64,000 nt of DNA from an uncultured Gammaproteobacteria bacterium (GCA_963705725.1 CAVPKM010000018.1:70860-134859); one strand, 5' to 3'. Positions 24,531 through 27,915 are shown, numbered from the stretch's first letter. Notes: generated from the sequence alone by a model not told the origin. A program made the numbers and translations.

Positions 24531-24965
24531 GTGTGTCTATCAAAGCGGGGGTAGATCACTTAGGAGTTGGCCCGGAGAGGTTGACTCGGGCCTTCCTGGC
24601 CCTCGCTCCTTCGGAGCACTTTGCTTCGCAAAATGTCCAAAAATGCTTTCCTGCATTTTTGCCGAACTCTTTTCGTTCGAATTTCTCCGGGAATCTTTTT
24701 GGAAGCACTGTGCGTTAGGGAGCAGGTGCCTTAGGAGTTGGCCCGGAGAGGTTGACTCGGGCCTTCCTGGCCCTCGCCCCTTCGGGGCACTTTGCTTCGC
24801 AAAATGTCCAAAAATGCTTTCCTGCATTTTTGCCGAACTCTTTTCGTTCGAATTTCTCCGGGAATCTTTCTGGAAGCACTGTGCGTTAGTATCCGCTAAT
24901 TTAACCACCCACTTATGCTATAACGTAAGTTCTTGCATACTCCTGTTTTTTTAAAGGAGTAGCGC

Positions 24966-25319
24966 ATGACAGCAACCCATAATTCGCCTTCTCAAAAAAC
25001 TCTGGCATTAAATATGGAAAAATGGCGATCAATAATTACAGATTGGGAATTAAGCAAAGAAAGTCAAAAAAAATATTGTGAGCGGTTAGGGATAAGTTTA
25101 AATACTTTTACGCATGCCCGTAGCAAGTTAATTCGAGATAAAAAAATAAAACCCGCGTTTATTCCTCTCTCTTTGAATCCAATCGAGATTCAAAATTCTT
25201 CGAGCATTAATACCGTGATTATTGAAAACCCGAAGGGATTTAAACTCCATGTTTCATCAGAATTATCGTTAGATCGTTTAGTGAAAATTTTTAAATTATG
25301 TGGGTGGTTAAATGCTTAA
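24966..25319 (+). CDS. tnpA: IS66 TnpA
   Basis: WRSIITDWELSKESQKKYCERLGIS HTH, FIPL motif. Confidence 0.85.
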   Translation: MTATHNSPSQKTLALNMEKWRSIITDWELSKESQKKYCERLGISLNTFTHARSKLIRDKKIKPAFIPLSLNPIEIQNSSSINTVIIENPKGFKLHVSSELSLDRLVKIFKLCGWLNA

Positions 25320-25668
25320 GTTACGAGACGAAGTAAAAATTTATGTGAGCATGGAGCCTATAGATGCGAGAAAAAGCATTGATAGTTTATGTATCCTTAT
25401 TGTCGAAAATTTTAAGGATAATCCACAATGTGGGAGCCTCTTTATTTTTTTTAATAAATCACGAGATAAAGTAAAAATTATTTGGTGGGATGCAAATGGT
25501 TTTATTCTACATTACAAGCGCCTTGAAAAAGGACGCTTTGTTCTGCCAAAATTAAGTGGAATTGATAAACTAGAAATTTCACAAACTCAGCTTCACGGTT
25601 TATTGGCAGGTTTAGATTTCTCACTCATGCGCCATTTTCCTGAAATAAATTATTATCAATATGCATAA
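25312..25668 (+). CDS. tnpB: IS66 TnpB accessory protein
   Basis: PIDARKSIDSL...LFIFFNKSRDKVKIIWWDANGFILHYKRLEKGRF. Confidence 0.92.
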   Translation: MLKLRDEVKIYVSMEPIDARKSIDSLCILIVENFKDNPQCGSLFIFFNKSRDKVKIIWWDANGFILHYKRLEKGRFVLPKLSGIDKLEISQTQLHGLLAGLDFSLMRHFPEINYYQYA

Positions 25669-25708
25669 AACAGTGAGGCATAGTGGAAAATTATAGTATC
25701 ATGTCTCC

Positions 25709-27256
25709 ATGGATAGATCTCATGAATTACAAGCGATATCAAAAGAAGAATTAATTAAAATAATTCAACAAAAAAACACCCTCCTTTTTGAACAAGCAAA
25801 ACAAATTCAATTTTTAGAAGAGCAAATTCTTGCCTATCGACTTCGCCAATTTGCCAATAAATCCGAGAAAATTAATCCTAATCAAATTTCTCTTTTTGAT
25901 GAGGCGGTATTGCCTAAATCAGAAGAGAAAATCTTATCACAAGAAGAAGTCATCACGGTTGCTTCTTATACTAAAAGTAAGCAGGTAGGGAGAAGAGCAC
26001 TACCTGCAGAATTACTTCGTATACCTCGAATCTATGATTTATCTGAAGATGAAAAAATTTGTCAATGCGGTTGTGCATTAACTCACATTAAAGATGAAAA
26101 AAGCGAGCAACTCGAAATTATTCCAGCAAAAATTTATGTCATCGAGCATATCAGAAAAAAATATGTCTGCAAAAAATGTCAAGAAACCATTAAGCTAGCA
26201 AAACAACCTGCTGCACCTATTCCAAGGAGTATTGCAGCAAGTGGATTATTAAGTCACGTATTGGTTTCAAAATTTCAAGACCACTTGCCGCTATTTCGCC
26301 AAGAAAAAATATTAAAACGCATTGGTGTGGATATTCCTCGAGCCACATTATGTTTATGGGTGATCAAGTGTGCTGAACTTTTGCTGCCGATTTTAAAACT
26401 AATGCATGATCGAATATTAACTTATGATATTGCTTATGTTGATGAAACCACATTGCAAGTTATTAAAGAACAGAATAAAAGTATAAAAAGTAAAAAATAC
26501 ATGTGGCTTTATTCAGGCGGACCCAAAGCACAATTTGTTTATTACTACCAATATCATCCTTCACGCTCACACGAAGTCGCCGATGCTTTTTTTGCGGATT
26601 TTTCAGGCTACTTACACTGTGATGGCTTCATTGGGTATGACACATTAGCGGGAAAAAGAAAAACGATAAAACTGGTTGGCTGTTGGTATCACGCGAGACG
26701 AAAATTTATTGAAGTTACAAAGCTCATGCCAAATAAAGAAGGGGTGGCTTGGCATATTGTTAAACTCATTGCAAAACTCAGCGTGATTGAAGAAGAAATA
26801 AAAATCTTATCTGCTGCAGAAAAACAGGCTATTCGACAAGCGAAATCGAAAGTGATTATCAATGAAATACAGGATTATCTCATCAAACATCAATCTATTA
26901 TTCCACCAAAAAGTTTATTAGGAGAAGCGATAGGTTATACACTCAATCAATGGCCAAAATTATTAAGATTTCTTGATGATGGACGTCTCGATATTAGTAA
27001 TAATCTTTCTGAGCGAGGCATTAAACCTTTTGTAATCGGCAGAAAAGGTTGGCTCTTTGCTGATAGTGTGGCTGGCGCTCATGCAGCAGCAACAATTTTT
27101 AGCATCATTGAAACTTGCAAGTATCATCAAGTTGAGCCTTATGATTATTTGCGATATGTGCTTGACGTTATACCTCGATGCAACACGATTGAAGATTACG
27201 AAAAACTCCTTCCTTATAATATTGATCGAGCACTGCTGGTTAGCCAAGTGCGCTGA
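25709..27256 (+). CDS. tnpC: IS66 DDE transposase TnpC
   Basis: Zn-finger CQCG...CKKC, KFQDHLPLFRQ, VDETT, CWYHARRKF, NNLSERGIKP. Confidence 0.95.
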   Translation: MDRSHELQAISKEELIKIIQQKNTLLFEQAKQIQFLEEQILAYRLRQFANKSEKINPNQISLFDEAVLPKSEEKILSQEEVITVASYTKSKQVGRRALPAELLRIPRIYDLSEDEKICQCGCALTHIKDEKSEQLEIIPAKIYVIEHIRKKYVCKKCQETIKLAKQPAAPIPRSIAASGLLSHVLVSKFQDHLPLFRQEKILKRIGVDIPRATLCLWVIKCAELLLPILKLMHDRILTYDIAYVDETTLQVIKEQNKSIKSKKYMWLYSGGPKAQFVYYYQYHPSRSHEVADAFFADFSGYLHCDGFIGYDTLAGKRKTIKLVGCWYHARRKFIEVTKLMPNKEGVAWHIVKLIAKLSVIEEEIKILSAAEKQAIRQAKSKVIINEIQDYLIKHQSIIPPKSLLGEAIGYTLNQWPKLLRFLDDGRLDISNNLSERGIKPFVIGRKGWLFADSVAGAHAAATIFSIIETCKYHQVEPYDYLRYVLDVIPRCNTIEDYEKLLPYNIDRALLVSQVR

Positions 27257-27838
27257 GGGGCTGATTAATTAGCGGATACGTGCGTTAGGGAGCAGGTGCC
27301 TTAGGAGTTGGCCCCGGAGAGGTTGACTCGGGCCTTCCTGGCCCTCGCCCCTTCGGGGCACTTTGCTTCGCAAAATGTCCAAAAATGCTTTCCTGCATTT
27401 TTGCCGAACTCTTTTCGTTCGAATTTCTCCGGGAATCTTTCTGGAAGCACTGTGCGTTAGGGAGCAGGTGCCTTAGGAGTTGGCCCGGAGAGGTTGACTC
27501 GGGCCTTCCTGGCCCTCGCCCCTTCGGGGCACTTTGCTTCGCAAAATGTCCAAAAATGCTTTCCTGCATTTTTGCCGAACTCTTTTCGTTCGAATTTCTC
27601 CGGGAATCTTTCTGGAAGCACTGTGCGTTAGGGAGCAGGTGCCTTAGGAGTTGGCCCGGAGAGGTTGACTCGGGCCTTCCTGGCCCTCGCCCCTTCGGGG
27701 CACTTTGCTTCGCAAAATGTCCAAAAATGCTTTCCTGCATTTTTGCCGAACTCTTTTCGTTCGAATTTCTCCGGGAATCTTTCTGGAAGCTTGAGATACG
27801 ATGGGTAATTTAGTTTTTGGAAACTAATTTAGCTTGTA

Positions 27839-27915
27839 TGGCGCGCCCGGAGAGATTCGAACTCCCGACCACCTGGTTCGTAGCCAGGTACTCTATCCAA
27901 CTGAGCTACGGGCGC
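27839..27915 (-). tRNA. tRNA-Arg(ACG)
   Basis: Cloverleaf GCGCCCG...; anticodon arm CCTGG CT ACG AA CCAGG; encoded CCA. Confidence 0.97.

What the first reader, a model, noticed from the sequence alone, without database searches (positions are those of the whole stretch)
24559..27915. 171-bp tandem array whose units mirror the adjacent tRNA-Arg 3' end and fold into GAA mini-hairpins
Seen: five units lie just downstream of tRNA-Arg(ACG). Each contains GTTCGAATTTCTCCGGG, a 16/17 match to the tRNA T-arm/acceptor 3' sequence but inverted (27759-27775 vs 27846-27862). Each also has a degenerate same-orientation copy (shared CTCTCCGGGC) at its other end. Inside are hairpins GCCCC-GAA-GGGGC and TTTGC-GAA-GCAAA (minus strand, containing GCGAAGC) and a 9-bp stem CAAAAATGC/GCATTTTTG. 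Unit 1 shows a compensatory C-G to T-A change in the first stem. Known: d(GCGAAGC) is an unusually stable DNA mini-hairpin, and tRNA 3' ends are island integration sites. Inference: a structured, tRNA-targeting small mobile or att-derived element that amplified in place. A read-through transcript could base-pair with the tRNA's own 3' arm and affect processing or termination.
Basis: partly seen in the sequence, partly recalled or inferred. Interest (0 to 1): 0.76.

Follow-up and report, generated by a model that had tools for sequence, protein, structure and literature searches.

The report
RtT-type repeat array behind tRNA-Arg
The 171-bp repeats behind the arginine tRNA gene are real, but they are a divergent member of the long-known and still unexplained RtT repeats that follow tRNA genes in E. 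coli and many other bacteria, here cut in two by an insertion sequence.

Summary
There are 4.87 copies of a 171-bp unit downstream of tRNA-Arg(ACG). Each has a 16/17 inverted copy of the tRNA T-loop-to-acceptor segment, a degenerate direct copy of the tRNA 3' end, and four inner hairpins.

The units are RtT-type repeats (Rfam RF00391; the 178-bp repeats of E. coli tyrT). A covariance model built only from this genus finds all four E. coli RtT copies. It also finds full-length matches in 67 of 151 sampled families of the class. These matches usually lie 44-148 nt behind a tRNA or tmRNA gene, and many end in an exact 19-nt copy of that gene's 3' end. E. coli carries such elements at the same locus (alaS-csrA-serV-argV).

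The hairpins covary strongly. The GCGAAGC loop is not conserved; the C-GNA-G triloop is. No integrase or transposase travels with the element. Its mobility is unproven, although modules look homogenised within genomes.

This scan has already reported RtT-like repeats in many other genomes. Verdict: new member of a known kind, low to moderate interest.

The parts
27936..28027 (-). tRNA-Ser(GCT), first gene of the serV-argV-type tRNA operon
   Evidence: ARAGORN; Rfam tRNA 58.9 bits
27839..27915 (-). tRNA-Arg(ACG); its 3' part GTTCGAATCTCTCCGGGCGCGCCA is the source of both arms of the repeat
27791..27838 (-). tRNA-proximal spacer (48 nt, AT-rich hairpin, no terminator-like site on this strand)
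   Evidence: sequence; terminator scan
27280..27790 (-). proximal block of the RtT-type array (2.94 units; the first 8 nt, 27280-27287, are the IS66 target duplication)
   Evidence: TRF; covariance-model hits
24889..27279 (+). IS66-family insertion sequence inside one unit (three ORFs: 24966-25319, 25312-25668, 25709-27256; ends GTATCCGCTAATT; 8-bp duplication GTGCGTTA at 24881-24888 and 27280-27287)
   Evidence: sequence; Pfam TnpB_IS66 110.6 bits and DDE_Tnp_IS66 300.4 bits
24559..24888 (-). distal block of the array (1.93 units); the last unit carries the compensatory GCTCC-GAA-GGAGC variant and is cut at 24559
   Evidence: TRF
27663..27752 (-). four-hairpin RtT core module of unit 1; the other four modules are at 27492-27581, 27321-27410, 24750-24839 and 24579-24668
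   Evidence: model R1 hits at 104-106 bits, (contig coordinates minus 70859); structure counts
27759..27775 (+). inverted arm: 16/17 copy of the tRNA T-loop/T-stem/acceptor segment in the opposite orientation; also at 27588-27604, 27417-27433, 24846-24862 and 24675-24691
   Evidence: 6 matches found, 0 expected
27652..27663 (-). degenerate direct copy of the tRNA 3' end (CTCTCCGGGCCA, lacking 4 nt of CTCTCCGGGCGCGCCA); also at 27481-27492, 27309-27321 (one extra C), 24739-24750 and 24568-24579
   Evidence: sequence; exact 16-19-nt copies in relatives
23303..24558 (+). degenerate IS3-like element truncating the array (ends TGATCTACCCCCGCTT; rve domain split over two ORFs; flanks gca / ctt do not match)
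   Evidence: Pfam HTH_Tnp_1, HTH_21, rve
28203..32610 (-). upstream context: csrA (28203-28448), aspartokinase (28685-29953), alaS (30010-32610). This has the same alaS-csrA-serV-argV order as in E. coli, apart from the aspartokinase gene between alaS and csrA
   Evidence: Pfam; E. coli annotation

Best explanation
The array is a divergent set of RtT-type repeats, the tRNA-linked repeat family first seen as the 178-bp x 3.14 repeats behind E. coli tyrT.

Anatomy, read in the direction of the tRNA, each unit consists of:
1. an inverted copy of the tRNA's T-loop/T-stem/acceptor segment;
2. a short loop;
3. the 5' half of a T-arm (GAGTTCG);
4. a conserved core of four hairpins placed where the T-loop would be;
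5. the 3' half of the T-loop, then the T-stem, acceptor strand and CCA.
A unit is therefore a copy of the last ~27 nt of the tRNA gene, split in its T-loop by an ~80-nt structured core and closed by its own complement.

Most likely mechanism:
- RNA polymerase starting at the serV-argV promoter reads past tRNA-Arg into the array (inferred; no terminator-like site lies on that strand).
- Each unit folds on itself (shown by covariation).
- The tRNA-like 3' end lets the tRNA 3'-processing enzymes cut the trailer into unit-length RNAs. This is inferred from E. coli, where the annotated 171-nt rttR RNA ends exactly at the CCA of the copy.
- The array grows and shrinks by unequal homologous recombination between units. 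Units are kept alike within a genome by recombination or gene conversion. This is inferred from 98-100% identity within the array against 88-90% between species.
- The cellular role of the RNA is not established. In E. coli it has only been proposed to modulate the response to amino-acid starvation.
For: Identity:
- Model R1, built only from 13 copies of this genus, hits all four E. coli K-12 RtT copies in the tyrT-tyrV locus (E 9e-9 to 6e-8, full length). Rfam RtT scores 133-137 bits at the same places.
- Rfam RtT passes its own threshold on two class-level loci that R1 found (L073 52.3 bits, L062 48.8 bits, gathering score 45).
- The Rfam consensus has the same order of parts: GgGaaGGAUGAGAAcC ... 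AGGUuCGA ... hairpins ... gCCCGaAGggCGAg ... CGAgUaAUCC followed by the tRNA 3' end.
- E. coli carries reduced RtT-like elements with an exact 19-nt tRNA-Arg 3' copy behind argV, argZ and argQ, at the same alaS-csrA-serV-argV locus.

Structure:
- In the genus alignment 95% of cells pair and each helix has one double change.
- In the 48-copy class alignment 96% pair, against 67% in shuffles. 24 of 25 pairs show double changes. The covariation score is 0.554 against 0.127 shuffled and at most 0.069 when partners are slid.

Link to tRNA genes:
- Of 88 pattern matches in 80 named genome loci, 55 lie 44-148 nt behind a same-strand tRNA of 15 species. 31 of these 55 end in an exact 19/19 copy of that tRNA's 3' end. 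tmRNA genes are also followed by the element.
- The arms track the neighbouring tRNA within the genus and, more weakly, across the class (6.0 against 4.6).

Transcription and processing:
- No terminator-like site lies on the tRNA strand between tRNA-Arg and the array, or inside it.
- The 3' end of E. coli rttR coincides with the end of the Rfam RtT match.
- RtT RNAs next to tRNA genes were seen on Northern blots in Actinobacillus (PMC4986893).
Against: - Rfam's own RtT model does not reach even E = 10 on the window's units, so membership rests on transitive homology.
- In the class alignment, G-U/U-G pairs (10) are no more frequent than A-C/C-A mismatches (9) among about 1050 cells. This is unusual for a structure selected only as RNA and leaves room for selection on DNA hairpins.
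- In the window the 3'-end copy is degenerate, with 4 nt missing. tRNA-like 3' processing may therefore not work on these particular units.
- In many other taxa a strong intrinsic terminator lies between the tRNA and the element, which argues against simple co-transcription as a general rule.
- The copy number comes from one assembly. A Logan short-read contig of the same locus stops about 200 bp past csrA, at about the position of the tRNA-Ser gene.
Confidence: 0.8

Rival explanations
1. The unit is, or recently was, a miniature non-autonomous mobile element. It would insert at the T-loop of tRNA or tmRNA genes through a recombinase supplied in trans. It would bring its own copy of the tRNA 3' end, and often a terminator, so that the gene stays intact, and it would push the original 3' end to its far side. 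The array would then reflect repeated insertion or later amplification. This reading concerns origin and is compatible with RtT membership.
For: - The duplicated segment starts at the same T-loop position (AATCC...CCA, 19 nt) whatever the tRNA (31 of 55 exact).
- The core sits exactly between GGTTCGA and AATCC, as a split T-loop.
- At single-copy loci the terminator next to the tRNA differs from the one after the element (L050, L051, L052). This fits an insertion better than a local duplication.
- Within a genome, cores at different tRNA-Arg genes resemble each other more than same-locus cores do across genomes. By eye the G004 ACG and TCG cores differ at only two or three positions. Window ACG against G004 ACG is 89%, and the G002 TCG, CCT and ACG-fragment cores are about 90% alike.
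- Copy number behind tRNA-Arg(ACG) is 4.87 in the window and 3 in G004. In G002 and G003 no unit directly follows the gene; module-bearing tRNA 3' halves lie further away, past inserted islands.
Against: - No integrase, transposase or other recurrent gene lies next to 108 loci; only housekeeping neighbours such as prs, rplY, pth, ychF and lysC recur.
- The own genome has only two PF00589 hits, both far from the array, and no copy of the unit at any other locus.
- The one integrase island examined (G002 C39) recombines at the anticodon loop, not the T-loop.
- Gene conversion would explain the within-genome similarity equally well.
Confidence: 0.25
2. The structure is selected at the DNA level rather than as RNA. 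The units would be hairpin-forming DNA, REP/BIME-like, acting for example as a two-way transcription barrier or recombination site at the end of the tRNA operon.
For: - G-U (10) and A-C (9) are equally rare in paired cells.
- Both strands fold about equally well (z -4.3 and -3.8).
- On the + strand each unit has a terminator-like hairpin GCCCCTTCGGGGC followed by ACTTTGCTTC, facing genes that converge on the tRNA operon (10 sites found against 4.2 expected).
Against: - The conserved GNA loop (41 of 48) and the flanks GGTTCGA and GAGTCAATCC are strand-specific and lie on the tRNA-sense strand.
- In E. coli and Actinobacillus the element is a detectable RNA (annotation; PMC4986893).
- The T-run after the + strand hairpin is weak and is not a general feature of the family.
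Confidence: 0.15
3. The repeats are leftover att sites of integrase-borne genomic islands that entered and left the tRNA-Arg gene.
For: - tRNA-Arg(ACG) is an island target in the genus. In G002 an integrase gene (123 bits to PF00589) starts 14 bp after the tRNA. Two attR-like tRNA 3' halves lie 21.5 and 40 kb further on.
- The region to the left of the array holds effector-like genes and IS elements.
Against: - Those islands duplicate the tRNA from the anticodon stem onward, not from the T-loop.
- The same anatomy, with a conserved and covarying core, follows at least 15 other tRNA species and tmRNA across many families, with no integrase nearby.
- att relics would not conserve four hairpins by compensatory change.
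Confidence: 0.04
4. The array is protein-coding, or an assembly artefact.
For: - 171 = 57 codons, so ORFs run through the array: 27285-27740 on the minus strand (151 aa) and 27385-27813 on the plus strand (142 aa).
- E. coli annotates a small ORF, tpr, inside its RtT.
- A short-read Logan contig breaks at this locus.
Against: - The 151-aa ORF has no family above threshold (Sua5_C 20.3 bits, below the 22.9 cut-off).
- Relatives have periods of 167-190 bp with indels that break any frame.
- Conservation follows base pairing, not codons.
- Arrays of the same family occur in independent assemblies, including complete genomes.
Confidence: 0.03

Closest known systems
RtT RNA / rttR, the 178-bp x 3.14 repeats of the E. 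coli tyrT-tyrV operon (Rfam RF00391; Egan & Landy 1978 and Bosl & Kersten 1991, the latter cited in PMC4986893 and PMC7542023)
   Same: - A tandem array of 170-180-bp units directly behind a tRNA gene on the same strand.
- Each unit ends in a copy of the tRNA's T-loop-to-CCA end and is closed by its complement.
- The inner motifs are shared: GGUUCGA, a variable hairpin, gCCCGaAGggCGAg, and CGAGUAAUCC.
- The model built from this genus finds the E. coli copies.
   Different: - It follows tRNA-Arg(ACG), not tRNA-Tyr.
- It has an extra long A/U-rich first hairpin (CAAAAATGC/GCATTTTTG).
- Its 3'-end copy is degenerate (12 of 16 nt kept).
- It lies below Rfam's detection limit.
- It is interrupted by IS66.
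- There is no evidence of an RNA product here.
RtT-like elements in the spacers of the E. coli serV-argV-argY-argZ-argQ operon
   Same: - The chromosomal locus is the same (alaS-csrA-tRNA-Ser(GCU)-tRNA-Arg(ACG)).
- Each element ends in an exact 19-nt copy of the tRNA-Arg 3' end and holds GGGAGGAT, a CGTTGC/GCAACG hairpin and GCCCGAAGGGCGAG.
- R1 gives weak full-length hits (E 0.0015-0.0075).
   Different: - In E. coli the tRNA gene itself is repeated four times, with reduced elements between the copies.
- Here there is one tRNA-Arg gene followed by five full-size units.
att-flanked relics of integrative elements at tRNA genes (islands; CIME-type elements lacking an integrase; recalled from the literature)
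   Same: Direct repeats of the tRNA 3' end bracket a non-coding segment. Tandem accretion occurs at a tRNA gene, and islands do use this tRNA in the genus.
   Different: - No integrase is present.
- The boundary is fixed in the T-loop for all tRNAs.
- The inner core is conserved and covarying.
- An inverted arm is present.
- Units are only 170-190 bp long.
REP/BIME, ERIC and other small intergenic repeats (MITE-like)
   Same: Short, GC-rich, hairpin-forming, non-coding, multi-copy in many genomes, and sometimes terminator-like.
   Different: - It is not dispersed in the own genome.
- It is tied to tRNA and tmRNA 3' ends.
- Its arms are copied from the neighbouring gene rather than being fixed terminal repeats.
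AaHKsRNA22 (Rfam RF02902, Aggregatibacter sRNA 22)
   Same: It is the only Rfam family with a full-length, though sub-threshold, match to each unit (24.9 bits against a gathering score of 39.8). The four-hairpin order and the GCCCCnAAGGGGCGAG motif are the same.
   Different: The match is below threshold (E 0.13 in 4.5 kb). Its genomic context was not examined. It is probably itself an RtT-like element of Pasteurellaceae, but that was not tested.

Membership tests
RtT repeats (RF00391) | Lies directly downstream of a tRNA gene, on the same strand | tested here: met
   The array starts 48 nt after the 3' end of tRNA-Arg(ACG), with the modules on the minus strand like the tRNA.
RtT repeats (RF00391) | Unit ends in a copy of the neighbouring tRNA's 3' end (T-loop 3' half to CCA, about 19 nt) | tested here: met
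   The window copy is degenerate: GAGTCAACCTCTCCGGGCCA against GAGTTCGAATCTCTCCGGGCGCGCCA. Same-genus copies behind Arg-TCG and Arg-CCT carry exact 16-19-nt copies. Class-wide, 31 of 55 copies match 19/19.
RtT repeats (RF00391) | An upstream segment complementary to that 3' end closes the structure | tested here: met
   There are five inverted arms, each 16/17 to the tRNA sequence. They correspond to the closing helix of the Rfam consensus.
RtT repeats (RF00391) | Conserved inner core (GGUUCGA, hairpins, CCCGAAGGGCGAG, CGAGUAAUCC) with a conserved fold | tested here: met
   Alignment A2 and the pair counts. R1 aligns these motifs to E. coli RtT. The class alignment is 96% paired, with 24 of 25 pairs covarying.
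RtT repeats (RF00391) | Scores above the Rfam gathering threshold (45 bits) | tested here: not met
   RF00391 is not listed even at E <= 10 on a single unit. Homology is shown indirectly, through R1 and through intermediate loci that pass the threshold.
RtT repeats (RF00391) | Tandem repetition with a period of about 170-180 bp | tested here: met
   171 bp, 4.87 copies. E. coli copies are spaced 178 bp apart.
RtT repeats (RF00391) | Released as a stable RNA from the tRNA operon transcript | not testable with these tools
The only indirect evidence is that no terminator-like site lies on the tRNA strand.
Integrative element / att-site relic | Tyrosine or serine recombinase in or next to the element, or in the genome with matching specificity | tested here: not met
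   There are only two PF00589 hits in the own genome, both far from the array. No recurrent recombinase lies next to 108 related loci.
Integrative element / att-site relic | Empty and filled sites differ exactly by the element between direct repeats | not tested
MITE / REP-like dispersed repeat | Many dispersed copies in the genome, with fixed terminal inverted repeats and target-site duplications | tested here: not met
   All five copies in the own genome lie at this one locus. The arms vary with the neighbouring tRNA.
d(GCGAAGC)-type mini-hairpin | Conserved GCGAAGC (C-GAA-G closed by G-C) as a functional core | tested here: not met
   The loop of that hairpin reads GAA, GCA, AAA, AGC, ATA or AAC within the genus. 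The neighbouring hairpin keeps a C-GNA-G triloop in 41 of 48 class-wide copies.

The most novel reading that the evidence does not exclude
RtT modules may be a cross-phylum family of non-autonomous mobile elements. They would insert into the universally conserved T-loop DNA of tRNA and tmRNA genes, carrying a replacement 3' end so that the gene survives. In this genus they would have moved between three tRNA-Arg isoacceptor genes, with their arms re-matched to each target. The tandem arrays behind tRNA genes, first reported in 1978, would then be their accretion products.
Probability: 0.25. Interest if true: 0.65.

Novelty: new member of a known kind. Interest (0 to 1): 0.25.

Why it matters
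On its own this is an ordinary though divergent instance of a family known since 1978, in an uncultured, effector-rich, Legionella-like bacterium. Its value is as a data point. A covariance model built from this genus alone reaches E. coli RtT and about 45% of the sampled families of the class. It also reaches a few MAGs labelled Chlorobium, Fibrobacter, Auribacterota and Aminicenantes. Together these hits give strong covariation support for a four-hairpin core that Rfam's RtT model only partly captures.

The fixed T-loop boundary, the arms that follow the neighbouring tRNA and the within-genome similarity of the cores sharpen an old open question. Either RtT repeats are selfish elements that target tRNA genes, or they are functional tRNA-operon trailers.

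For annotation, such arrays should not be called genes, att sites or new mobile elements.

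Tried and rejected
- Rfam on the region returned only tRNAs and a sub-threshold AaHKsRNA22 hit. RtT itself was not detected, so identification needed a custom model.
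- A search of the own genome for other copies found none, which rules out a dispersed MITE in this genome.
- A search for integrases found only two PF00589 hits in the own genome, neither near the array.
- ORFs of 108 related loci were clustered to look for a companion gene. Only housekeeping neighbours of tRNA-Gln and serV recurred.
- The coding reading of the in-frame ORFs was rejected.
- A strand test by G-U against A-C counts was inconclusive, 10 against 9.
- The promoter and terminator scan found no tRNA-strand terminator and only weak + strand terminator-like hairpins.
- Literature: the original Bosl & Kersten paper is not held. The mobilome preprint reports raised coverage of the tyrT region but no circular DNA.
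- An attempt to name the organism through an encoded protein gave only an unnamed Logan contig.
As a result there was no empty-site comparison at the own genome's other tRNA-Arg genes, no RNA-seq and no read support for copy number.

Full report
**What is in the sequence**

Tandem Repeats Finder reports a 171-bp period at 24559-24889 (1.9 copies) and 27280-27790 (3.0 copies). tRNA-Arg(ACG) lies at 27839-27915 and tRNA-Ser(GCT) at 27936-28027, both on the minus strand. The array therefore lies downstream of the tRNA's 3' end.

The two blocks are one array split by an IS66-family element at 24889-27279. It has three ORFs, and Pfam gives TnpB_IS66 at 110.6 bits and DDE_Tnp_IS66 at 300.4 bits. The 8-bp duplication GTGCGTTA flanks it. 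Removing it restores a unit and gives 833 bp, or 4.87 units.

At 24559 the array abuts the terminal repeat of a degenerate IS3-like element at 23303-24558. Its rve domain is split, and its flanks gca and ctt do not match. The original far end of the array is therefore lost.

- There are five + strand copies of GTTCGAATTTCTCCGGG, each 16/17 to the tRNA-sense sequence on the other strand. None is expected by chance.
- Every unit carries a degenerate direct copy, CTCTCCGGGCCA against CTCTCCGGGCGCGCCA.
- The three hairpins are present, as is the compensatory GCTCC/GGAGC variant in the distal unit.

**Anatomy from relatives**

The unit occurs only at this locus in the window's own genome. The other four genomes of the genus, which is the only genus of its family and order in the collection, do have it. 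There it lies behind tRNA-Arg(ACG), tRNA-Arg(TCG) and tRNA-Arg(CCT).

Read in the tRNA direction, each unit has these parts in order:
1. a spacer;
2. an inverted copy of the T-arm/acceptor segment;
3. a short loop;
4. GAGTTCG, the 5' half of a T-arm;
5. four hairpins;
6. GAnTCA followed by ATC..., the T-stem, the acceptor strand and CCA.

Behind Arg-TCG the last part is an exact CTCTCCGGGCGCGCCA, and the spacer is repeated with it. Behind Arg-CCT both arms change to the CCT tRNA's sequence, ATCCTGCTCGGGGCGCCA and ATTCGAAC. The arms follow the neighbouring tRNA while the core stays the same. A unit is thus a copy of the tRNA gene's last ~27 nt, split in the T-loop by an ~80-nt core.

In G002 an integrase gene starts 14 bp after tRNA-Arg(ACG). 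Two attR-like tRNA 3' halves that begin at the anticodon stem lie 21.5 and 40 kb away, each with the core fused into its T-loop. G001 keeps an undeleted form of the same junction. I read these as RtT-bearing tRNA 3' halves that were displaced by island integration and later shortened. The units themselves are not the att sites of those islands.

**Identification**

Rfam gives no significant family for the units. The only hit is a full-length but sub-threshold match to AaHKsRNA22.

I aligned 13 genus copies (A2), defined four helices, and built model R1. In these copies 95% of cells pair and each helix has one double change.

In a sample of 151 genomes of the class, one per family, 67 had full-length hits down to E = 2.6e-21. 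Hits were often in tandem at 170-260 bp spacing. In 28 loci from other families, most top hits lay 35-98 nt behind a tRNA or tmRNA gene on the same strand. The genes were Glu, Arg-ACG/CCG/TCT, Ser-GGA/GCT/CGA, Gln, Val and tmRNA. Many hits ended in an exact 17-19-nt copy of that gene's 3' end.

Rfam's RtT model (RF00391) passes its gathering score on two of these loci, over the same bases. R1 also hits all four RtT copies of the E. coli K-12 tyrT-tyrV locus (E 9e-9 to 6e-8), where Rfam RtT scores 133-137 bits and rttR is annotated as a 171-nt RNA.

The window's locus has the same gene order as E. coli: alaS, (aspartokinase), csrA, tRNA-Ser(GCU), tRNA-Arg(ACG). The E. coli arg spacers hold reduced RtT-like elements that end in an exact 19-nt tRNA-Arg copy.

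The array is therefore a divergent member of the RtT repeat family. Papers held here describe RtT as an RNA released from the tyrT transcript and from other tRNA-operon transcripts. They report it next to tRNA genes and on Northern blots in Pasteurellaceae, and give its function as unknown or possibly linked to amino-acid starvation (PMC4986893, PMC7542023, bioRxiv 10.1101/2024.07.17.603846).

**Breadth and statistics**

Most were Gammaproteobacteria: Legionella, Legionellales, Ca. Berkiella, Pseudomonadales, Lysobacterales, Idiomarina and Thiotrichales. A few MAGs were labelled Chlorobium, Fibrobacter, Auribacterota, Aminicenantes or Burkholderiales. R1 and tRNA adjacency confirm most of these outliers, although mis-binning cannot be excluded.

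Of 88 matches in the 80 listed loci:
- 55 lie 44-148 nt behind a same-strand tRNA of 15 species;
- 10 more are second or later units of arrays;
- 31 of the 55 carry an exact 19/19 copy of the tRNA 3' end.

The inverted arm matches the non-universal part of its own tRNA better than that of other tRNAs (6.0 against 4.6), so it covaries more loosely than the 3' copy.

In the 48-copy class alignment 96% of cells pair, against 67% in shuffles. 24 of 25 pairs show double changes, and the slid controls collapse. The alignment was fitted to the model, so these counts lean towards the structure. The loop of helix 3 is GNA in 41 of 48 copies. The loop containing GCGAAGC is not conserved. G-U (10) and A-C (9) are equally rare, so the data do not say whether selection acts on RNA alone.

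**Mechanism**

- Shown: the family membership, the fold, the link to tRNA genes, the arms derived from the neighbouring tRNA, and the two IS events.
- Inferred: read-through transcription from the tRNA operon. There is no terminator-like site on that strand.
- Inferred from E. coli: processing at the tRNA-like 3' end, because rttR ends at the copy's CCA.
- Inferred: growth of the array by unequal recombination. Units are 98-100% identical within the array and 88-90% identical between species.
- Cores at different tRNA-Arg genes of one genome resemble each other more than same-locus cores do across genomes. This points to gene conversion or movement between loci.
- An insertion origin at the T-loop is attractive because the 19-nt boundary is fixed and the proximal and distal terminators differ. 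But no recombinase accompanies the element, and no empty site could be examined.

**Limits**

As a result I have no expression data, no read support for copy number, and no empty-site test. A short-read Logan contig of the same locus ends about 200 bp past csrA, at about the position of the tRNA-Ser gene. That is what a repeat-rich region would produce.

**Relation to earlier work in this scan**

Earlier notes report RtT-like repeats behind tRNA genes in many other genomes, including Patescibacteria, Clostridia and an alphaproteobacterium. My identification was reached independently and agrees with them. Here the link to E. coli RtT is by direct model hits and not only by layout.

**Verdict**

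This is a new member of a known kind, with interest 0.25.

Noticed in passing
window 24889-27279: An intact-looking IS66-family element (TnpA-like ORF, TnpB_IS66, DDE_Tnp_IS66) is inserted in an RtT unit with a clean 8-bp duplication GTGCGTTA. This suggests a recent insertion.
   Followed up: yes
window 23303-24558: A degenerate IS3-like element has its rve domain split over two ORFs. Its flanks (gca / ctt) do not form a target duplication. Its left flank is the terminator of the F-box/RCC1 gene, so an IS-mediated deletion or rearrangement probably removed the far end of the array.
   Followed up: partly
L044 (G002:C39) 9756-10968; L035/L018 and L034/L011: In a same-genus genome, tRNA-Ser(GCT)-tRNA-Arg(ACG) is followed after 14 bp by an integrase gene. 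Two attR-like tRNA-Arg 3' halves, starting at the anticodon stem, lie about 21.5 and 40 kb downstream. These look like tandem islands. Each displaced half has the RtT core fused directly into its T-loop.
   Followed up: partly
L078 (E. coli K-12 NC_000913.3 2817600-2818480): The spacers after argV, argZ and argQ hold reduced RtT-like elements with an exact 19-nt copy of the tRNA-Arg 3' end. Rfam RtT does not report them at its gathering score, while R1 gives weak full-length hits.
   Followed up: partly
L125, L095, L122, L104, L145 (named MAG contigs): RtT-type cores lie directly behind tRNA-Ser or tRNA-Met genes in MAGs labelled Chlorobium, Fibrobacter, Auribacterota and Aminicenantes (R1 E 3e-13 to 1e-5). 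This is either a range beyond Proteobacteria or mis-binned contigs.
   Followed up: partly
window 27484-27580 and the other units, minus strand: Rfam family AaHKsRNA22 (RF02902) aligns over its full length to each unit, with the same four-hairpin order, at 24.9 bits (gathering score 39.8). That Aggregatibacter sRNA may itself be an RtT-like element.
   Followed up: no
alignment A3 (class-wide cores): G-U/U-G pairs (10) are no more common than A-C/C-A mismatches (9) in about 1050 paired cells. Wobble usage this low is unusual for a structure selected as RNA.
   Followed up: partly
L199 (Logan contig ERR10755948_2519918): A public short-read contig carrying identical alaS, aspartokinase and csrA ends about 200 bp after csrA, at about the position of the tRNA-Ser gene. 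The tRNA/RtT region appears not to assemble from short reads in that sample.
   Followed up: no
window 22217-23109: A 156-bp tandem repeat (5.7 copies, 88% matches) lies inside the 447-aa ORF at 21858-23201. It is the RCC1-repeat gene noted by other findings on this window.
   Followed up: no
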